IMG/VR virus record: IMGVR_UViG_2526164634_000013
Span: 1-9,208 of that record
DNA from: a virus
Taxonomy: Duplodnaviria; Heunggongvirae; Uroviricota; Caudoviricetes
Reading direction: 5' to 3' (one strand)
Length of the DNA stretch: 9,208 nucleotides
In this document: positions 1,528 to 8,836 of the stretch, piece after piece
Numbering within the stretch: position 1 is the stretch's first letter
Layout: each line of letters starts with the position of its first letter
Translations under genes and position numbers: made by a program
The notes under the pieces: model-generated
What the model was told of the DNA's origin: nothing
The model's input: the letters and a program-made list of their open reading frames with translations, nothing else
Databases searched by the model: none

Positions 1528-1632
1528 ATGTCGGATGATATATCACTGGCAATGGAAGGTGCGCTGGCTGTTGTTGCTGTTGTGGGCGTTTACTGCCTGG
1601 TTGTGTTTTTGATGGATCGACTAGGGAACTGA
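1528..1632 (+). CDS. Micro-ORF, 34-aa hydrophobic peptide (MSDDISLAMEGALAVVAVVGVYCLVVFLMDRLGN), putative single-pass membrane peptide
   Basis: ATG at 1528 with AAGGAGGG at 1517-1524. Acidic N-terminus followed by a ~20-residue hydrophobic helix. Not in the ORF track; translated by hand. Confidence 0.45.
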   Translation: MSDDISLAMEGALAVVAVVGVYCLVVFLMDRLGN

Positions 1633-1640
1633 ATTCATTA

Positions 1641-1662
1641 CGATATGGGAATTCCCATATCG
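1641..1662. repeat. Perfect 22-bp palindrome CGATATGGGAATTCCCATATCG
   Basis: The sequence equals its own reverse complement and contains a central GAATTC. It lies 9 nt after the stop of the 34-aa micro-ORF and about 35 bp upstream of the predicted hok promoter. No U-tract follows, so it is not a classical intrinsic terminator. Confidence 0.6.
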
Positions 1663-1673
1663 GGTAAAAACGG

Positions 1674-1702
1674 TTTGCGGTAAAGCGAGAGTTAAGTAGA
1701 AT
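1674..1702 (+). promoter_or_regulatory. Candidate sigma70 promoter of the hok transcript (-35 TTTGCG/TTGCGG, -10 TAGAAT at 1697-1702)
   Basis: TAGAAT matches the -10 consensus at 5 of 6 positions, with a 16-17 bp spacer to a weak TTG-containing -35. The predicted +1 near 1707-1709 coincides with the 5' arm of the long-range complementarity to the mRNA 3' end. Confidence 0.4.
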
Positions 1703-1878
1703 TGCAGCGGGTGCTTGAGGCTATCTGTCTCAGGCATGAACACCAAAAGGCAGATAGAGAAAAGCCCCAGTTAACATTATGCGTCCTGCAAGACGCTTAA
1801 CATTAATCTGAGGCCCAATCTATGTCTCACAAATGTAGGTTAGCCTCTTACGTGCCGAAAGGCAAGGAGAAGCAGGCT

Positions 1879-2034
1879 ATGAAGCAGCAAAAGGCGATGT
1901 TAATCGCCCTGATCGTCATCTGTTTAACCGTCATAGTGACGGCACTGGTAACGAGGAAAGACCTCTGCGAGGTACGAATCCGAACCGGCCAGACGGAGGT
2001 CGCTGTCTTCACAGCTTACGAACCTGAGGAGTAA
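1879..2034 (+). CDS. hokD: Hok/Gef-family type I toxin (51 aa, small membrane-depolarising peptide)
   Basis: The product MKQQKAMLIALIVICLTVIVTALVTRKDLCEVRIRTGQTEVAVFTAYEPEE has the Hok/Gef hallmark: N-terminal TM helix and conserved TRKDLCEV…R…G…EVA.F.AYE. From memory it matches E. coli HokD/RelF very closely. The family call is secure; the exact paralog name is by recall only. An in-frame upstream ATG at 1822 with GAGG SD gives the 70-aa track ORF. Confidence 0.85.
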   Translation: MKQQKAMLIALIVICLTVIVTALVTRKDLCEVRIRTGQTEVAVFTAYEPEE

Positions 2035-2082
2035 GAGACCAGGCGGGGGAGAATCCCTCGCCACCTCTGATGTGTCAGGCAT

Positions 2083-2097
2083 CCTCAACGCACCCGC
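2083..2097 (+). promoter_or_regulatory. 3' fold-back element of hok mRNA (fbi-like), complementary to the predicted 5' end at 1707-1720
   Basis: 1707-1720 (GCGGGTGCTTGAGG) pairs antiparallel with 2083-2097 (CCTCAACGCACCCGC): 8 bp plus 6 bp with one bulged C. This is the architecture described for hok mRNAs, where the 3' end pairs with the 5' translational activator region. Confidence 0.5.
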
Positions 2098-2103
2098 ACT
2101 TAA

Positions 2104-2128
2104 CCCGCTTCGGCGGGTTTTGTTTTTT
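2104..2128 (+). terminator. Rho-independent terminator ending the hok transcript
   Basis: Hairpin CCGC-TTCG-GCGG (2105-2116) followed by GTTTTGTTTTTT. Confidence 0.75.
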
Positions 2129-2200
2129 CCTGGCATTCTGGTTTACAATTCGCACACCAGCCTGAACAACTGGCACCTGCTGCGCCAGCAGAGACAACCG

Positions 2201-2480: not shown

Positions 2481-3527
2481 GTGCGGGTATTACTTCGACC
2501 TGTTCTGGTACCGGAACTCGGGCTGGTGATCGTTAAGCCGGGCCGTGAATCCATGCCGGTATTCCACAATACCCGGGTACTGGTGGAGCCGGAACCGAAA
2601 AGCATGCGTAATCTGTCGTCCGGGGTCGTTCCTGCCGTTCGCCAGCCGCTGGCGGAGGATAAATCATTACTGCCATTTTTCAGCGACGAACGAGTGATTC
2701 GTGCTGCTGGTGGCGCTGGCGCATTGTCTGACTGGTTACTGCGCCATGTTAAATCCTGCCAGTGGCCACACGGCGATTATCACCACAGTGAAACCGTCAT
2801 TCACCGTTATGGTACCGGCGCAATGGTGTTGTGCTGGCACTGCGACAACCAGCTGCGCGACCAGACCTCCGAATCACTCGGGCAACTTGCTCACCAAAAC
2901 CTGTCTGCATGGATGATTGACGTCATACGCCATGCAATGAATGGCTCGCAGGAACGGGAATTATCGCTGGCTGAATTATCCTGGTGGGCGGTCCGCAATC
3001 AGGTGGCGGACGCGCTACCGGAAGCGGTATTACGTCGTTCGCTGGGGTTGCGTGCGGAAAAAATCCGCTCAATGTACCGTGAAAGCGACATCGTACCGGG
3101 AGAGCAGACCGCCACCAGCATACTGAAGCAGCGCACAAAAAATCTTGCGCCGCTGCCTCACGCCCACCAGCAAAACCCGCCACAGGAAGAGACGGTGGTC
3201 AGCATTGCCGTTGATCCTGAGTCTCCGGAATCTTTCATGAAACGACCTAAACGTCGCCGCTGGGTTAACGAGAAATACACACGCTGGGTGAAGACACAGC
3301 CGTGTGCGTGTTGTGGTAAGCCAGCCGACGATCCCCATCACCTGATTGGTCATGGTCAGGGCGGAATGGGGACAAAATCTCACGATATTTTCACGCTACC
3401 GCTGTGTCGGGAGCATCACAACGAGCTTCATGCGGATCCTCTGGCGTTCGAAGAAAAGTATGCTTCTCAGGTTGATTTAATTTTTCGTTTTCTTGATCAC
3501 GCCTTTGCAACTGGCGTGCTTGGGTAA
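2481..3527 (+). CDS. ydfU: DUF968 (YdfU-like) prophage protein with C-terminal Cys/His HNH-like motif
   Basis: 348-aa ORF with GTG start at 2481 and GGAGG at 2472-2476. The C-terminal segment CACCGKPADDPHHLIGHGQGG…LPLCREHHNELH resembles a zinc-binding HNH-type module. The length matches the roughly 349-aa YdfU of Qin as I recall it; the family call is by recall. Confidence 0.75.
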   Translation: MRVLLRPVLVPELGLVIVKPGRESMPVFHNTRVLVEPEPKSMRNLSSGVVPAVRQPLAEDKSLLPFFSDERVIRAAGGAGALSDWLLRHVKSCQWPHGDYHHSETVIHRYGTGAMVLCWHCDNQLRDQTSESLGQLAHQNLSAWMIDVIRHAMNGSQERELSLAELSWWAVRNQVADALPEAVLRRSLGLRAEKIRSMYRESDIVPGEQTATSILKQRTKNLAPLPHAHQQNPPQEETVVSIAVDPESPESFMKRPKRRRWVNEKYTRWVKTQPCACCGKPADDPHHLIGHGQGGMGTKSHDIFTLPLCREHHNELHADPLAFEEKYASQVDLIFRFLDHAFATGVLG

Positions 3528-3539
3528 AAGAGGTGACTG

Positions 3540-3899
3540 ATGCTCATAGATTTGGTTTTACCTTACCCGCCGACGGTGAACACTTACTGGCGACGCCGTG
3601 GCAGCACATATTTTATCTCGGAGGAGGGAAAGCGTTATCGCCGTGATGTGGCGCTTATTGTTCGCCAGCAGCAACTGAAATTAAACCTGTCCGGAAGGCC
3701 GGCAATAGAAATTATTGCAGAGCCACCGGATAAGCGCCGTCGTGACCTGGACAATATCCTGAAGGCACCACTGGATGTACTGACGCATGCGGGGCTGCTC
3801 ATAGACGACGAGCAGTTTGATGAAATTAATATTGTGCGCGGTCAGCTTGTTCCTGGTGGGCGGTTGGGGATAAAAATCACAGAACTGGAGTATGCATGA
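3540..3899 (+). CDS. rusA: RusA-family Holliday junction resolvase
   Basis: 119-aa product with PPxxNxYWRRRG…RRRDLDN…DDxQ…GGRL, matching the RusA catalytic acidic-residue pattern. SD AGAGG upstream. The stop overlaps the next start (ATGA at 3896-3899). Confidence 0.88.
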   Translation: MLIDLVLPYPPTVNTYWRRRGSTYFISEEGKRYRRDVALIVRQQQLKLNLSGRPAIEIIAEPPDKRRRDLDNILKAPLDVLTHAGLLIDDEQFDEINIVRGQLVPGGRLGIKITELEYA

Positions 3900-4585
3900 A
3901 TAACCAGTATTTACAGTTTGTTCGTGAGCAACTCATGATTGCCACCGCCGATTTGAGTGGATCAACAAAAGGGCAGCTTGAGGCCTGGCAGGAGAATGCC
4001 ATGTTTGATACAGGGCGTTACAGGCGTAAAAAAATCCGGTACCGCGATGAAGTGACTGGAAAAATGATAACGCGGGATAATCCACCAATCCCGGGAAAGC
4101 AATCGCTGGCGAAGGGGGCGTCAATTCCTCTCGTCAGTCCGGTTGAGTTTTTGACATCATCGTGGCGGCGGGCTGTTCTGTCTCTTGAAGAACATCATAA
4201 AGCCTGGTTGTTGTGGTGTTACAGCGGGAGTATTTGTTGGGAATATCAGATCGCGATAACGCAGTGGGTGTGGAATGAATTTAAAACCCGGTACGGCACC
4301 AGAAAAATTGCAGGGAAAACGCAGGAGCGCGCGAAGAAGTTGATCTGGCTGGCGGCACAGGATGTCAGAGGATGGATTACCGGGTGTGAGGTCTACCAGA
4401 GACAGGAGCTTGCCAGACTGTGTGGAGTTAAGCCTGATAACTGGAGCCATAATTATGCGAACTACTGGCGTGAGATGTGCGATATTTTTAAGAGTCTCGA
4501 TAGAGAATCTGTGATTTGCACCGTGAAAATAAGAGCGCAACAAAAAGCGACTTTTTCACGACGAGATATTGCAAAAGTCAATTAA
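3896..4585 (+). CDS. Putative late-gene antiterminator Q (long Q-like family, QuuQ/YdfT-type)
   Basis: 229-aa ORF translationally coupled to rusA, with GGAG 5 nt upstream. It is the last gene before a promoter-like AT-rich stretch and a strong terminator, which is the canonical Q position in lambdoid phages. The family is inferred mainly from synteny; I cannot confirm by motif. Confidence 0.55.
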   Translation: MNNQYLQFVREQLMIATADLSGSTKGQLEAWQENAMFDTGRYRRKKIRYRDEVTGKMITRDNPPIPGKQSLAKGASIPLVSPVEFLTSSWRRAVLSLEEHHKAWLLWCYSGSICWEYQIAITQWVWNEFKTRYGTRKIAGKTQERAKKLIWLAAQDVRGWITGCEVYQRQELARLCGVKPDNWSHNYANYWREMCDIFKSLDRESVICTVKIRAQQKATFSRRDIAKVN

Positions 4586-5145: not shown

Positions 5146-6195
5146 ATGCTTAATACTGTAAAAATATCCAGTTGTGAGTTAATCAACGCCGACTGCCTGG
5201 AATTTATCCGGTCGTTACCCGAAAATTCTGTTGACCTGATAGTCACGGACCCGCCGTACTTTAAAGTGAAGCCTGAGGGCTGGGATAACCAGTGGAAGGG
5301 CGACGATGATTACCTGAAATGGCTGGACCAGTGTCTGGCGCAGTTCTGGCGGGTGCTGAAACCTGCCGGAAGTCTTTACCTGTTCTGTGGTCATCGCCTG
5401 GCATCTGATATCGAAATCATGATGCGTGAACGCTTCAGTGTGCTGAACCATATTATCTGGGCGAAGCCGTCCGGACGCTGGAACGGGTGCAACAAGGAAA
5501 GCCTGCGGGCGTATTTCCCCGCCACAGAGCGCATTCTGTTCGCGGAACATTATCAGGGGCCGTATCGCCCGAAAGATGCCGGGTATGAGGCGAAGGGCAG
5601 GGCACTGAAACAGCATGTGATGGCCCCGCTGATTTCTTACTTTCGTGATGCGCGCGCTGCCCTGGGGATAACGGCAAAACAGATAGTGGATGCCACAGGA
5701 AAGAAAAACATGGTGTCACACTGGTTCAGTGCCAGTCAGTGGCAGCTACCGAACGAAAGCGATTATCTGAAATTACAGTCGCTGTTTGCCCGGGTGGCAG
5801 AAGAGAAACATCAGCGGGGAGAACTGGAAAAGTCCCATTACCAACTGGTCAGCACATACAGTGAGCTGAACCGGCAGTATACGGAACTGCAGAGTGAATA
5901 TAAGCATCTGCGGCGGTATTTTGGCGTGACGGCGCAGGTGCCGTACACGGATGTGTGGACGCATAAACCGGTGCAGTACTATCCAGGGAAACATCCGTGC
6001 GAAAAACCGGCAGAAATGCTGCAGCAGATAATCAGCGCAAGTAGTCGTCCTGGTGATCTGGTTGCGGATTTTTTCATGGGGTCGGGTTCAACGGTAAAAG
6101 CGGCGATGGCACTGGGGCGTCGTGCGATTGGCGTTGAACTGGAGACCGGACGTTTTGAGCAGACAGTCAGGGAAGTTCAGGATTTAATCGTTTGA
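5146..6195 (+). CDS. Orphan DNA methyltransferase, beta class (N6-adenine/N4-cytosine family, PF01555-like)
   Basis: 349-aa product with catalytic DPPY (residues 35-38) preceding the AdoMet-binding motif HPCEKP…GDLVADFFMGSGST (residues 283-316). That motif order defines the beta class, and DPPY rather than SPPY favours N6-adenine. No obvious SD before the ATG. No restriction endonuclease ORF in the window. Confidence 0.88.
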   Translation: MLNTVKISSCELINADCLEFIRSLPENSVDLIVTDPPYFKVKPEGWDNQWKGDDDYLKWLDQCLAQFWRVLKPAGSLYLFCGHRLASDIEIMMRERFSVLNHIIWAKPSGRWNGCNKESLRAYFPATERILFAEHYQGPYRPKDAGYEAKGRALKQHVMAPLISYFRDARAALGITAKQIVDATGKKNMVSHWFSASQWQLPNESDYLKLQSLFARVAEEKHQRGELEKSHYQLVSTYSELNRQYTELQSEYKHLRRYFGVTAQVPYTDVWTHKPVQYYPGKHPCEKPAEMLQQIISASSRPGDLVADFFMGSGSTVKAAMALGRRAIGVELETGRFEQTVREVQDLIV

Positions 6196-6244: not shown

Positions 6245-6320
6245 GGCCCTTTAGCTCAGTGGTGAGAGCGAGCGACTCATAATCGCCAGGTCGCTGGTTC
6301 AAATCCAGCAAGGGCCACCA
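6245..6320 (+). tRNA. ileZ: tRNA-Ile2 (anticodon CAU, lysidine type), ileZ-like
   Basis: Hand-folded cloverleaf: acceptor GGCCCTT/AAGGGCC, D-stem GCTC/GAGC, anticodon loop CTCATAA, T-loop TTCAAAT, encoded CCA. Closely resembles E. coli tRNA-Ile2 as recalled. Confidence 0.8.
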
Positions 6321-6327
6321 TCACATA

Positions 6328-6404
6328 CCGCCATTAGCTCATCAGGAAAGAGCGCCAGCCTTCGAAGCTGGCTGCGCGGAGTTCGGGTCCCCGAAGGCGG
6401 TCCA
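6328..6404 (+). tRNA. argN: tRNA-Arg (anticodon UCG as read from sequence), argN-like; atypical stems
   Basis: Perfect anticodon stem CCAGC/GCTGG with loop CTTCGAA, D-stem GCTC/GAGC, encoded CCA. However there is one A-A mismatch in the acceptor stem, one A-C mismatch in the T-stem, and the T-loop is TTCGGGT (G at position 58). Confidence 0.55.
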
Positions 6405-6417
6405 TTATCTGTATCCT

Positions 6418-6494
6418 GCGTTGTTAGCTCAGCCGGACAGAGCAATTGCCTTCTAAGTAATCGGTCACTGGTTCGAATCCAGTACAACGCGCCA
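6418..6494 (+). tRNA. argO: tRNA-Arg (anticodon UCU), argO-like
   Basis: Acceptor GCGTTGT/ACAACGC, D-stem GCTC/GAGC, anticodon stem ATTGC/GTAAT with loop CTTCTAA, T-arm ACTGG-TTCGAAT-CCAGT, encoded CCA. Confidence 0.82.
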
Positions 6495-6508
6495 CACTTA
6501 TTTTCCCT

Positions 6509-6533
6509 GGCTCGCTTTTGCGGGCCTTTTTTT
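6509..6533 (+). terminator. Intrinsic terminator immediately after the tRNA cluster
   Basis: Stem GGCTCGC / GCGGGCC (one U-G pair) with loop TTTT, followed by TTTTTTT. Confidence 0.7.
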
Positions 6534-6730
6534 AAATGTCTCACAATTCAGACGGTTGACAGTTGTCTGTTTTGCGGGGAGTTTGTTAAAAGAAACTGGC
6601 ATGGTGAATCCCCCTGTGCGGAGGGGCAATCAGCGAGTAGGTATATGGGATAATCGCGGATTCAGGTGCTGGTACTGAATTCACCGGGAGGCACCCGGCA
6701 CCATGCAATGGCACATAGCGCCACTCTCCA

Positions 6731-6755
6731 GCCCCTCTCCGGAGGGGCTTTCTTA
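6731..6755 (+). terminator. GC-rich hairpin with T-rich tail (terminator-like) in the tRNA-to-esterase interval
   Basis: Stem GCCCCTC / GAGGGGC with loop TCCG, followed by TTTCTTA. Shares the core CGGAGGGGC with a second hairpin at 6611-6626. Confidence 0.4.
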
Positions 6756-6760
6756 TGGAC

Positions 6761-6982: not shown

Positions 6983-8836
6983 ATGGCATTTAAACACTAT
7001 GATGTTGTCAGGGCGGCGTCGCCGTCAGACCTTGCGGAAAAGCTGACACATAAACTGAAAGAGGGCTGGCAGCCGTTTGGTAGTCCGGTGGCCATAACCC
7101 CTTATACCCTGATGCAGGCGATTGCAGCAGAAGGTGATGTGGTCGTCAGTGGTGCAACTGAGCCGGAGTGGTACTACGTCATCGTACTGGCCGGGCAGTC
7201 CAATGCCATGGCTTACGGTGAAGGGCTTCCGCTTCCGGATTCATACGATGCGCCGGATCCGCGCATTAAACAGCTGGCGCGCCGCAGTACAGTGACGCCG
7301 GGTGGGGCTGCCTGCAGATATAACGATATTATTCCGGCCGACCACTGCCTGCATGATGTGCAGGATATGAGTACGCTGAATCATCCGAAGGCAGACCTGA
7401 GCAAAGGGCAGTACGGCTGTGTCGGCCAGGGCTTACATATTGCCAAAAAACTGCTTCCGTATATCCCGAATAACGCGGGGATCCTGCTGGTACCATGCTG
7501 TCGTGGTGGTTCGGCATTCACCCAGGGCGCGGAGGGGACATTCAGTGCGGACACGGGGGCCAGCCAGGATTCGGCACGCTGGGGTGTGGGTAAACCGTTA
7601 TATCAGGACCTGATTGCGCGCACTAAAGCTGCATTACAGAAGAACCCGAAAAATGTGTTGCTGGCGGTGTGCTGGATGCAGGGAGAGTTTGACATGAGCG
7701 CCGCCACCTACGCACAGCAACCTGCGCTGTTTACAGCCATGCTGAAGCAGTTTCGTGCTGACCTCACTGTGTTTAACGCGCAGTGTCATGGTGGCAGTGC
7801 TGCAGATGTGCCGTGGATTTGTGGTGACACGACGTATTACTGGAAAAATACATACGCTACCCAGTACGACACCGTGTACGGCGGGTATAAAAACAGGGAG
7901 AGTGAGGGCGTTTATTTTGTGCCCTTCATGACAGACGGTAACGGCGTCAATACCGCCACTAACGCACCGGCAGAAGATCCGGATATTCCGGCATCAGGAT
8001 ATTACGGTGCGGCATCGAGAACGAATGGAAACCAGGTATCATCAAACCGCCCGACACATTTCAGTTCATGGGCGCGCAGGAGCATTATTCCGGATCGTAT
8101 GGCAACCGCTATTCTGAACGCAGCCGGGCGCACCTCAGCCTTCATCAGTGGTAAGGCACCGGAAATCAAACCCTCGCCCGGCGTCGACACGCCATCGGGG
8201 CCGTCTGAAGATGCATCCGTACGCACAATCTCCCTGTTGCCGACAGCCGGAGAGGCTGCTGCGCAGGGCTGGACCATTAAGGACGGCGGAATTCAGTTGT
8301 CGGGTGGTGTATTTAAGATCGCCAAGCAGAGCAATAAAGCCTGGTCCCTGACGCGCCCGGTGGGTGACGCAGTCTCCCTGCTGACACGGGGTGGCAGACT
8401 GAGCTGTAAGTTTCGACTGTCAGGCGCACTGACCAACAACCAGTTCGGTCTGGGAATTTATCTGTATACCGATGTAGCGTTACCTGACGTCGTGGCGATG
8501 ACCGGGACTGGTAACCCGTTCCTGATGTCGTTCTTCACCCAGACCACAGACGGCAAACTGAATCTGATGCATCACAAGAAAGCAGGAAACACAAAGTTGG
8601 GCGAGTTCGGGAATTACAGTAACGACTGGCAGACGCTGGAGCTGGTGTTCACCGCCGGCCAGTGCCACGGTTACTCCGAAACTGAATGGAGTGGCTGGCC
8701 CGGCATTCCAGGTCATAAAGACAGTCTGACAGTGGGACTAAATGCACTGACGCTGACGGATATTACCAAAAATGCAACGTATGGCGTTGAGATAGAAAGT
8801 CTGGTGCTGGAGATAAATGCACCGGCATCATCATAA
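6983..8836 (+). CDS. nanS-p: Prophage sialate O-acetylesterase NanS-p-like (SGNH/SASA hydrolase with N-terminal DUF1737-like region)
   Basis: 617-aa product. The motif [16 protein letters not shown] carries the GQSN catalytic-serine signature of SASA-type esterases (NanS/YjhS family). The N-terminal [21 protein letters not shown]… resembles the short domain that heads prophage NanS-p proteins. GGGAGG SD at 6973-6978. Confidence 0.8.

What the first reader, a model, noticed from the sequence alone, without database searches (positions are those of the whole stretch)
1780..1880. Sok-type antisense RNA and mok frame not resolved; the only upstream ORF is in-frame with hok
Hok systems need an antisense Sok RNA and an overlapping mok reading frame that couples hok translation. 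I could not place a convincing minus-strand promoter and terminator for Sok by eye; candidate minus-strand boxes near 1840-1865 match consensus at only 3-4 of 6 positions. The other two forward frames are closed by stops within this stretch (TAG at 1836-1838 and 1841-1843, TGA at 1880-1882). The only upstream start with an SD is the in-frame ATG at 1822 (GAGG at 1810-1813), which would make an N-terminally extended 70-aa Hok rather than a separate-frame Mok. Either the regulation here differs from the plasmid paradigm, or the antitoxin RNA lies where I did not recognise it. A hairpin at 1781-1796 (GCGTC-CTGCAA-GACGC) sits in the expected target region.
Basis: inference. Interest (0 to 1): 0.45.

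Follow-up and report, generated by a model that had tools for sequence, protein, structure and literature searches.

The report
Ordinary prophage hok/mok/sok toxin-antitoxin locus

Summary
Every coordinate checks out, and the only upstream start with a ribosome-binding site (SD) is ATG 1822, in frame with hok (1879), giving a 70-aa ORF.

**Sok can be placed.**
- Window 1833-1881 is identical to the tested hokW-sokW locus of Sakai prophage Sp5.
- That span holds -35 TTGCCT (1865->1860), a 17-nt spacer and -10 TAACCT (1842->1837). Mutating that -10 in Sp5 abolished antitoxin activity.
- I predict Sok at about 1830->1760 on the minus strand, 71 nt like sokW.
- It folds as a 5' tail, a long hairpin and a U tail (z -5.4). 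Four of its pairs covary across relatives.
- K-12's annotated sokC maps to the same place.

**The in-frame mok is normal here.**
- R1 and K-12 mokB have mok 58 nt upstream of hok, out of frame.
- K-12 mokC and the Sp5 'MokC' ORF (ECs_1245) are 57 nt upstream, in frame.
- Among 94 distinct related leaders the spacing is 57 nt in 73, 58 in 10 and 56 in 6.

**The locus looks intact.** The 5' end (tac) pairs with the 3' fbi element, and a terminator follows. The toxin is 100% K-12 HokD, whose own copy lacks everything upstream of 1865.

Verdict: already known; low interest.

The parts
1697..1702 (+). Probable -10 (TAGAAT) of the hok mRNA promoter. A weak -35 (TTTGCG/TTGCGG) lies at 1674-1680.
   Evidence: Read from the sequence. 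It sits 7 nt upstream of the first base of the Rfam leader match at 1709. This is inference; the consensus scan did not call it.
1709..1720 (+). hok mRNA 5' end, the 'tac' element GGGUGCUUGAGG.
   Evidence: First position of the RF01794 match. It is invariant in the alignments with hokC, hokW and the R1-type locus. In the minimum-energy fold of the full-length RNA it pairs with 2083-2095.
1760..1830 (-). Predicted Sok antisense RNA, about 71 nt. It has a 5' single-stranded tail (1830 to ~1817), a long hairpin (1816 to ~1765) and a U-rich 3' end (UUUU at 1763-1760).
   Evidence: K-12 sokC (16952..17010) maps to window 1830->1754. sokW is stated to be 71 nt complementary to the hokW leader. RNA fold -30.7 kcal/mol, z -5.39, 0 of 200 shuffles as good. 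Four stem pairs show compensatory changes in 24 relatives. The ends are inferred, not measured.
1837..1842 (-). Sok promoter -10, TAACCT on the minus strand.
   Evidence: Identical to Sp5 sokW. Primers YO-421/YO-422 change plus-strand TAGGTTA to CCGGCTC, which turns TAACCT into GAGCCG, and create the 'pro-less' mutant that loses antitoxin activity. TAAYCT or TATCCT sits at the same offset in 59 of 94 distinct leaders, and most other variants keep the final T.
1860..1865 (-). Sok promoter -35, TTGCCT on the minus strand, 17 nt from the -10. It overlaps the hok SD.
   Evidence: Identical to Sp5. TTG is kept at this offset in 89 of 94 distinct leaders (TTGCCT 60, TTGACC 27, TTGCGC 2). Mean column entropy over 1837-1865 is 0.009 among close relatives.
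1780..1797 (.). 18-nt palindromic insertion that lengthens the tip of the Sok / sokT stem-loop.
   Evidence: Absent from K-12 hokC and R1-type loci, present in Sp5 hokW and in Kluyvera and other relatives. Shown as an insertion in the Rfam alignment.
1810..1813 (+). mok Shine-Dalgarno (GAGG).
   Evidence: GAGGC is conserved 5-9 nt upstream of the mok ATG across relatives.
1822..2034 (+). mok reading frame, 70 codons, in frame with hok: 19 extra N-terminal codons followed by Hok.
   Evidence: ORF list. Its ATG aligns with the annotated K-12 mokC start and with the Sp5 ECs_1245 'MokC' 70-aa ORF. The 57-nt spacing occurs in 73 of 94 distinct leaders.
1826..1829 (+). YUNR (CUCA) motif in the loop of the mok-start hairpin, opposite the Sok 5' end.
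   Evidence: Loop of the hairpin 1817-1841 in the RF01794 structure and in the fold. CUGA or CUAA occupies the same place in R1-type, hokC and hokW. Its role follows from Franch et al. 1999 (U-turn model), which is cited in PMC1635323.
1864..1869 (+). hok Shine-Dalgarno (AAGGAG).
   Evidence: Read from the sequence. Invariant in the alignments.
1879..2034 (+). hok toxin gene, 51 aa, 100% identical to K-12 HokD (RelF).
   Evidence: Pfam HOK_GEF at 81.6 bits. Identity to K-12 HokD and 46 of 51 residues shared with HokW. RefSeq names the same gene hokD in near-identical loci.
2083..2095 (+). 'fbi' element (CCUCAACGCACCC), which pairs with the mRNA 5' end.
   Evidence: Minimum-energy fold of 1709-2127: -169.7 kcal/mol, z -6.68, with 1709-1720 paired to 2083-2095.
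2102..2129 (+). Intrinsic terminator of the hok mRNA.
   Evidence: Terminator scan: 7-bp stem at 2102-2119 followed by TTGTTTTTTC.

Best explanation
Window 1697-2129 is an intact hok/mok/sok type I toxin-antitoxin cassette of the hokD/hokW kind. It sits in the nin region of a lambdoid prophage, upstream of a DUF968 gene, rusA and Q.

**Proposed mechanism (inferred by homology, not measured here)**
1. A stable, highly folded hok mRNA (about 1709-2127) is made.
2. Pairing of its 5' end (tac, 1709-1720) with its 3' end (fbi, 2083-2095) keeps it untranslatable and inaccessible to Sok until 3' processing.
3. After refolding, ribosomes can load at the mok SD and ATG (1810-1813, 1822). Translation through the leader opens the hok SD and ATG (1864-1869, 1879).
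4. A short unstable antisense RNA, Sok, is transcribed from the minus-strand promoter TTGCCT-17 nt-TAACCT (1865->1837), from about 1830 to about 1760.
5. Sok's single-stranded 5' tail pairs with the YUNR loop at the mok start and blocks mok translation, and therefore hok translation. The duplex is then cut by RNase III.

**The one difference from plasmid R1**
The mok ATG is 57 nt rather than 58 nt upstream of hok. The 'Mok' product is therefore an N-terminally extended Hok, not a separate-frame peptide. The same is true of K-12 mokC/hokC, Sp5 hokW and most relatives. It is compatible with the mechanism, because in R1 only mok translation up to the hok initiation region is needed.
For: **Family identity**
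- RF01794 leader match at 121 bits.
- HOK_GEF domain present.
- The toxin is 100% identical to K-12 HokD.
- RefSeq names the gene hokD in loci that are at least 99% identical.

**Sok placement**
- K-12 sokC maps to window 1830->1754.
- Window 1833-1881 is identical to Sp5 hokW-sokW, and the whole locus is 93.9% identical.
- In Sp5, sokW was seen on northern blots. Mutation of the -10 TAACCT removed protection, and sokW supplied in trans partly restored it (PMC8621323).
- The complementing fragment (primers YO-406/YO-541) corresponds to roughly window 1727-1882.
- The predicted Sok folds as tail + hairpin + U tail, z -5.39.
- Four stem pairs change in a compensatory way.
- The -35 TTG and the -10 are conserved at fixed offsets, and the promoter is nearly invariant among close relatives.

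**mok**
- The window ATG aligns with the annotated mokC start, which is also in frame.
- Sp5 ECs_1245 is a 70-aa in-frame ORF annotated MokC.
- Spacing survey of 94 distinct leaders: 57 nt in 73, 58 nt in 10, 56 nt in 6.
- In R1, stop codons in mok downstream of the hok start are tolerated, and only translation up to the hok SD is required (PMC9841398).

**mRNA architecture**
- tac-fbi pairing appears in the minimum-energy fold, z -6.68.
- A terminator follows the locus.
Against: - No expression data exist for this window. The Sok 5' and 3' ends, the hok mRNA start and the use of ATG 1822 are all inferred from homologues.
- By consensus the Sok promoter is weak (4/6 and 3/6), and the pattern TTGnnn-17-TAnnnT alone is expected about once by chance in a region of this size.
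- The covariation in the hairpin cannot tell the Sok strand from the mirror-image stem in the hok mRNA.
- Chromosomal hok loci of K-12 and related strains were reported not to mediate post-segregational killing (summarised in bioRxiv 10.1101/2025.08.07.668861). An intact sequence therefore does not prove activity.
- hokW lies at a different place in its prophage (near the right end of Sp5) than this locus, which is in the nin region. The biological role may differ.
Confidence: 0.9

Rival explanations
1. The locus is a decayed, non-functional chromosomal hok remnant, like most K-12 hok loci. Sok and mok cannot be recognised because they no longer work.
For: The K-12 hokD copy really is truncated: its homology to the window begins only at 1865, so it lacks mok, the Sok target and the Sok -10. 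Chromosomal hok loci have been reported inactive for post-segregational killing. The consensus scan calls no promoter.
Against: Every element is present and aligned here: tac, fbi, mok SD and ATG, an open 70-codon frame, the Sok promoter, hairpin and U tail, and the terminator. The regulatory core is identical to the functional hokW-sokW. Loci covering at least 80% of the query occur in 3948 of 5426 complete E. coli genomes, and the promoter is nearly invariant among close relatives.
Confidence: 0.05
2. Regulation really differs from the paradigm. There is no mok-hok coupling, and the 70-aa in-frame product is the toxin, or one of two toxic isoforms. Sok would then repress the toxin's own initiation site directly.
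For: With a 57-nt spacing, any ribosome starting at 1822 must read through to the hok stop and make the 70-aa protein. The extension (MSHKCRLASYVPKGKEKQA) is short and basic. The in-frame state is the majority. No paper I found reports the size of the product or products.
Against: Close relatives with the same Hok have mok 58 nt upstream (a separate frame) or 56 nt upstream (a 19-codon ORF ending at the TGA that overlaps the hok ATG). The extension is therefore dispensable. Codons 2-4 of the extension are hypervariable. The hok SD AAGGAG and its ATG are invariant. The 51-aa HokW ORF alone is toxic when expressed.
Confidence: 0.05

Closest known systems
hokW-sokW of Sakai prophage Sp5 (E. coli O157:H7; Takada et al. 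2021, PMC8621323)
   Same: 93.9% identical over the whole mRNA. The Sok promoter and hok initiation region are identical (window 1833-1881). It has the same 18-nt hairpin extension, the same in-frame 70-aa mok ORF, and a Sok length of about 71 nt. It is also carried by a prophage.
   Different: The Sok 5' tail and mok codons 2-4 differ (window GUGAGACAUAGAUUGGG, sokW GUUCAGCAUGGAUUGAG). Five residues at the Hok C-terminus differ. hokW lies near the right end of Sp5 on the opposite strand, whereas this locus is in the nin region, co-oriented with Q.
hokC(gef)/mokC/sokC of E. coli K-12
   Same: mokC is annotated in frame with hokC, 19 codons longer, and sokC overlaps the first 9 nt of mokC on the opposite strand. 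The start codons align with the window.
   Different: hokC lacks the 18-nt hairpin extension. In K-12 an IS186 copy lies immediately downstream of its hokC locus and the alignment with the window breaks off in the 3' region. Its -10 region reads CACTCT rather than TAACCT.
hok/mok/sok (parB) of plasmid R1
   Same: Same set of elements: tac, fbi, mok SD and ATG, YUNR loop, hok SD, and a Sok made of a 5' tail plus a hairpin, with its promoter at the homologous position (TTGCGC-17-TATCCT in the R1-type locus).
   Different: The R1 mok ATG is 58 nt upstream of hok, so Mok is a separate-frame 70-aa peptide of Pfam DUF5431. R1 Sok is 64 nt with a shorter hairpin. HokW, a close relative of this Hok (46 of 51 residues), is reported as only 44% identical to R1 Hok.
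hokD (relF) of the K-12 Qin prophage
   Same: The Hok protein is identical, the DNA is 98.5% identical from 1865 to 2127, and the prophage neighbourhood is the same (a DUF968-type gene and Q downstream).
   Different: In K-12, relBE replaces everything upstream of window position 1865, so there is no mok start, no Sok target and no Sok -10. The window carries the intact form.

Membership tests
[quoted passage not shown] | Small hydrophobic Hok/Gef toxin ORF | tested here: met
   PF01848 HOK_GEF at 81.6 bits (cut-off 22). 100% identical to K-12 HokD.
[quoted passage not shown] | Structured hok mRNA leader (Rfam RF01794 covariance model) | tested here: met
   121 bits against a gathering score of 59, full-length match at 1709-1884.
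[quoted passage not shown] | Long-range pairing of the 5' end (tac) with the 3' end (fbi) in the full-length mRNA | tested here: met
   The minimum-energy fold pairs 1709-1720 with 2083-2095, z -6.68. This is a prediction only.
[quoted passage not shown] | Upstream mok reading frame with its own SD that runs into or over the hok start | tested here: met
   GAGG at 1810-1813 and ATG at 1822, open through the hok start. The ATG aligns with the annotated mokC start. Actual translation was not tested.
[quoted passage not shown] | Cis-encoded antisense Sok RNA complementary to the mok initiation region, with its own promoter and a terminator hairpin | tested here: met
   In sequence terms the promoter is identical to the experimentally defined sokW promoter. 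Hairpin plus U tail, z -5.39. Covariation in the stem. Positionally equivalent to sokC.
[quoted passage not shown] | Sok RNA is expressed, represses Hok, and the duplex is cleaved by RNase III | not testable with these tools
   Shown for the near-identical hokW-sokW locus, not for this sequence.
[quoted passage not shown] | YUNR U-turn motif in the target loop opposite the Sok 5' end | tested here: met
   CUCA at 1826-1829 in the loop of the mok-start hairpin. CUGA or CUAA occupies the same place in homologues.
R1-type Mok peptide (Pfam DUF5431, separate frame) | mok ATG 58 nt upstream of hok (the +1 frame) and a product that matches DUF5431 | tested here: not met
   The spacing here is 57 nt and in frame. 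The 70-aa product hits only HOK_GEF, whereas plasmid Mok products hit DUF5431 at 72-115 bits.
mokC-type (in-frame) Mok | mok ATG 57 nt upstream of hok, sharing its frame and stop codon | tested here: met
   Same geometry as K-12 mokC/hokC (16751..16960 against 16751..16903) and Sp5 ECs_1245. Found in 73 of 94 distinct leaders.

The most novel reading that the evidence does not exclude
In the in-frame class there may be no separate Mok peptide. Every ribosome that starts at 1822 would make a 70-aa Hok with a basic N-terminal extension, and that protein may itself be active in the membrane. Sok would then control a toxin isoform directly rather than only through translational coupling.

In addition, the hypervariable Sok 5' tail (1815-1834) next to an invariant promoter and hairpin may act as an addressing code. 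It would keep the up to ten co-resident prophage hok/sok copies of one genome from cross-repressing each other.
Probability: 0.3. Interest if true: 0.4.

Novelty: already known. Interest (0 to 1): 0.12.

Why it matters
The finding matters little as a discovery. The cassette is a textbook system, its nearest relative (hokW-sokW) has been characterised experimentally, and related loci covering at least 80% of this one occur in about three quarters of complete E. coli genomes.

It has some practical value:
- RefSeq annotates only the hokD CDS at such loci, so the Sok RNA and the mok frame go unrecorded.
- The Rfam model named 'sok' matches the hok mRNA strand, not the Sok strand.
- Consensus promoter scans miss the real Sok promoter.
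- The natural variation in mok-hok spacing (56, 57 or 58 nt) among close relatives independently supports the view that it is mok translation, not the Mok product, that matters.

Tried and rejected
1. **Consensus promoter and terminator scan of 1600-2200.** It found no promoter on either strand and only the hok mRNA terminator. It is therefore uninformative for Sok. I estimate that the pattern TTGnnn-17-TAnnnT alone would occur about once by chance in a region of this size.

2. **An early wrong belief about R1.** I first thought R1 mok was also in frame. An IncFII plasmid whose Hok is identical to R1 Hok has the upstream ATG 57 nt away. I rejected this after three checks:
   - the numbering of Le Rhun et al. 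(mok ATG 116-118, hok ATG 174-176; Mok residues Q15 G16 E17 E18);
   - a plasmid CDS annotated 'mok';
   - the DUF5431 hits.

   All three show that R1-type mok is 58 nt upstream and out of frame.

3. **Looking for hokW in the Sp5 nin region** (Sakai 1256000-1272000). It is not there. It lies near the right end of the prophage.

4. **Sources I could not reach.** Thisted et al. 1994 (PMC395038) is not held, and the R1 record KY749247 is not in the plasmid collection.

5. **Literature on an in-frame Mok.** Searches for an explicit statement found none. A 2026 preprint says that Mok prediction across the family remains unresolved.

Full report
**1. The observation**

- GAGG lies at 1810-1813.
- ATG lies at 1822-1824, 57 nt upstream of the hok ATG at 1879 and so in frame with it.
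- TAG at 1836-1838 and TAG at 1841-1843 close the other two forward frames.
- TGA at 1880-1882 overlaps the hok ATG.
- The hairpin GCGTC-CTGCAA-GACGC lies at 1781-1796.

The ORF table lists 1822..2034 as a 70-aa ORF whose last 51 residues are Hok. A scripted scan found no other SD-preceded start 20-90 nt upstream of hok.

The region is not chance sequence. Rfam RF01794 matches 1709-1884 over the full model at 121 bits (gathering score 59).

**2. Context**

The window is the early-right (nin) and Q region of a lambdoid prophage of E. coli.
- The hok locus is followed by a DUF968 gene (2481-3527), rusA (3540-3899) and Q (3896-4585), as named in a near-identical RefSeq locus.
- Further on come a 349-aa ORF at 5146-6195 (not searched here), three tRNAs and the STnc100 sRNA.

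Near-identical loci (at least 98%) are annotated hokD in many E. coli chromosomes. Of 5426 complete genomes, 4956 have a match and 3948 have one covering at least 80% of the query, with a median of 2 copies and up to 10. RefSeq annotates only the hokD CDS there, with no mok and no sok.

The toxin is 100% identical to K-12 HokD (RelF). The K-12 copy matches the window only from 1865 onward, because relBE replaces its leader. The window therefore holds the intact form of a locus that is truncated in K-12.

**3. Where Sok is**

Three independent lines place Sok on the minus strand from about 1830 to about 1760.

*Annotation transfer.* K-12 RefSeq annotates sokC at 16952..17010, opposite mokC/hokC. 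In a pairwise alignment this maps to window 1830->1754, and the mokC ATG aligns with ATG 1822.

*An experimentally characterised near-twin.* The hokW-sokW locus of Sakai prophage Sp5 (Takada et al. 2021, PMC8621323) is 93.9% identical to window 1709-2097, and it is identical from 1833 to 1881.
- Their hokW-mRNA probe YO-597 equals the window's minus strand 1866->1837 exactly.
- Their mutagenic primers YO-421/YO-422 convert plus-strand TAGGTTA to CCGGCTC. On the minus strand this turns the -10 TAACCT into GAGCCG.
- That 'pro-less' mutant lost protection against HokW, and sokW supplied in trans partly restored it. sokW was seen on northern blots and is described as 71 nt complementary to the hokW leader.
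- In the window the same hexamers are -35 TTGCCT (1865->1860) and -10 TAACCT (1842->1837), separated by 17 nt.
- A start near 1830 and a stop in the U run at 1763-1760 give 71 nt.

*Structure and conservation.*
- RNA 1830->1756 folds into a single-stranded 5' tail, a long hairpin and a U-rich tail (-30.7 kcal/mol, z -5.39, 0 of 200 shuffles as good). R1 Sok has the same architecture: 64 nt, an 11-nt tail and one stem-loop (PMC1635323).
- In 24 diverse relatives, four stem pairs show compensatory changes, for example A-U/G-C at 14:9 and G-C/A-U at 12:11.
- Anchored on the hok ATG, the -35 keeps TTG in 89 of 94 distinct leaders. The -10 is TAACCT, TAATCT or TATCCT in 59, and most other variants keep the final T.
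- Among close relatives, 1837-1865 is almost invariant, with mean column entropy 0.009.

It is simply a weak match to consensus.

Two caveats apply. The hexamer pattern alone would occur by chance about once in such a region. The stem covariation equally fits the mirror-image stem in the hok mRNA. The case rests on homology to the tested locus.

**4. The hairpin at 1781-1796**

This hairpin is an 18-nt palindromic insertion (1780-1797) at the tip of the Sok stem and of the complementary target stem. It is absent from hokC and R1-type loci. It is present in hokW, in Kluyvera and in other relatives.

It lengthens Sok from about 57-59 nt to about 71-75 nt. It is not the site of first contact. That site is the loop of the mok-start hairpin (1817-1841), where CUCA at 1826-1829 is a YUNR motif facing the Sok 5' end. 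CUGA or CUAA occupies the same place in R1-type, hokC and hokW.

**5. The mok frame**

- In R1 the mok ATG is at 116-118 and the hok ATG at 174-176, which is 58 nt apart. Mok residues Q15 G16 E17 E18 are read in the +1 frame (PMC9841398).
- A plasmid CDS annotated 'mok' and a Klebsiella plasmid 'DUF5431' CDS have the same geometry. Their products hit Pfam DUF5431.
- K-12 mokB is also 58 nt upstream.

The in-frame geometry is nevertheless established.
- K-12 mokC (16751..16960) shares its stop codon with hokC (16751..16903) and is 19 codons longer.
- The Sakai genome annotates a 70-aa in-frame 'MokC' ORF at hokW.

I surveyed 94 distinct leaders drawn from 53 genome loci, 80 viral contigs and reference loci.

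| Spacing of the SD-preceded mok ATG from hok | Distinct leaders | Notes |
|---|---|---|
| 57 nt | 73 | in frame; includes Photorhabdus, Pantoea, Citrobacter and Pseudocitrobacter |
| 58 nt | 10 | separate frame, as in R1 |
| 56 nt | 6 | a 19-codon ORF that stops at the TGA overlapping the hok ATG |
| none found | 5 | includes truncated, K-12-like copies |

Loci encoding the same Hok differ by single-base indels here. This fits the R1 result that only mok translation up to the hok initiation region is needed and that the Mok product is irrelevant. The window's 70-aa product hits HOK_GEF only, not DUF5431.

**6. The rest of the machinery**

- The minimum-energy fold of 1709-2127 (-169.7 kcal/mol, z -6.68) pairs the 5' end GGGUGCUUGAGG (1709-1720) with CCUCAACGCACCC (2083-2095). 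This is the tac-fbi lock of the paradigm.
- A terminator follows at 2102-2129.
- A plausible hok mRNA promoter (-10 TAGAAT at 1697-1702) sits 7 nt upstream of 1709. This is inference from the sequence.

**7. Mechanism and confidence**

Shown here:
- the sequence-level presence of every element;
- their homology to annotated and tested loci;
- the predicted folds;
- conservation and covariation across relatives.

Inferred:
- that Sok is expressed from 1865-1837;
- that ATG 1822 is used;
- RNase III cleavage of the duplex;
- 3' processing of the mRNA.

I put 0.9 on a conventional hok/mok/sok cassette. I put 0.05 on a dead remnant and 0.05 on a truly different regulation in which the 70-aa in-frame product is the toxin or one of two toxic isoforms.

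**8. Novelty**

This is already known. The in-frame mok, the Sok position and the promoter are all annotated or published for mokC/sokC and hokW-sokW.

Two points may be worth a note.
- No systematic statement of mok frame variation seems to exist. A 2026 preprint explicitly left Mok prediction aside.
- The Sok 5' tail is hypervariable next to an invariant promoter and hairpin.

Noticed in passing
window 1815-1834: Among near-identical prophage loci, variation is concentrated in the Sok 5' tail, which covers the mok SD-ATG spacer and mok codons 2-4. Mean column entropy is 0.71 at 1817-1830, against 0.009 for the Sok promoter and 0.07 for the hairpin, and there are at least 9 tail alleles. Copies that share one genome carry different tails: L009, L010 and L017 in E. 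coli ECMA0423, and L012, L014 and L018 in S. flexneri. This may insulate co-resident hok/sok copies from cross-repression.
   Followed up: partly
loci L010, L015, L016, L019, L021, L028, L030, L033-L036, L062, L072, L098, L138, compared with window 1822-1879: The spacing between the mok ATG and the hok ATG is 56, 57 or 58 nt in close relatives because of single-base indels. Mok is therefore a 19-aa ORF ending at the ATGA overlap, an in-frame Hok extension, or a separate-frame peptide.
   Followed up: partly
L003 344-403 (IncFII plasmid pMTY1886_IncFII): This plasmid encodes a Hok identical to R1 Hok, yet its upstream ATG is 57 nt away and in frame. R1 itself and F-like plasmids have a 58-nt spacing. 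I did not check whether this is a 1-nt deletion variant or a sequencing error.
   Followed up: no
window 1709-1884; L002 502-654: The Rfam family RF01794 is named 'sok antitoxin', but it matches the hok mRNA (sense) strand. In K-12 the hit is on the hokC strand, opposite the annotated sokC. Annotation drawn from it would put 'sok' on the wrong strand and make it about 100 nt too long.
   Followed up: yes
window 1865 (breakpoint); L143: The K-12 Qin hokD locus matches the window at 98.5% only from 1865 to 2127. The junction with relBE falls inside the Sok -35 and the hok SD.
   Followed up: yes
window 2017-2020: Tyr47 of Hok is encoded by TAC within CTTACGAA, which contains the TACG motif. A preprint reports A-to-I editing that recodes Tyr to Cys at the equivalent site of hokC, hokD and hokE, as first found at a different site (codon 29) in hokB. 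I did not examine this here.
   Followed up: no
window 1641-1662: A perfect 22-bp palindrome, CGATATGGGAATTCCCATATCG, lies between the stop of the upstream small ORF (1630-1632) and the hok promoter. No T run follows it on either strand. Its function is unknown; it could be a protein-binding site or an RNA stem.
   Followed up: no
window 1530-1632: A small hydrophobic ORF (MSDDISLAMEGALAVVAVVGVYCLVVFLMDRLGN) lies immediately upstream of hok on the same strand. A 34-codon 'hypothetical protein' CDS is annotated at the corresponding position in a 99%-identical RefSeq locus; I did not compare the sequences.
   Followed up: no
window 6245-6760 and 6983-8836: Three tRNA genes are followed by the sRNA STnc100 (139 bits) and then a 617-aa ORF. 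No ORF resembling Shiga toxin subunits lies between the tRNAs and that ORF. The third tRNA call (6328-6401) is weak at 42 bits.
   Followed up: no
L022 (Acinetobacter idrijaensis), L027 (Xanthomonas pisi), L060 (Candidatus Scatousia MAG): Very short contigs (275-2995 bp) assigned to non-enterobacterial genomes carry hok sequences that are 96-100% identical to this one. They are most likely E. coli or phage contamination in those assemblies.
   Followed up: no
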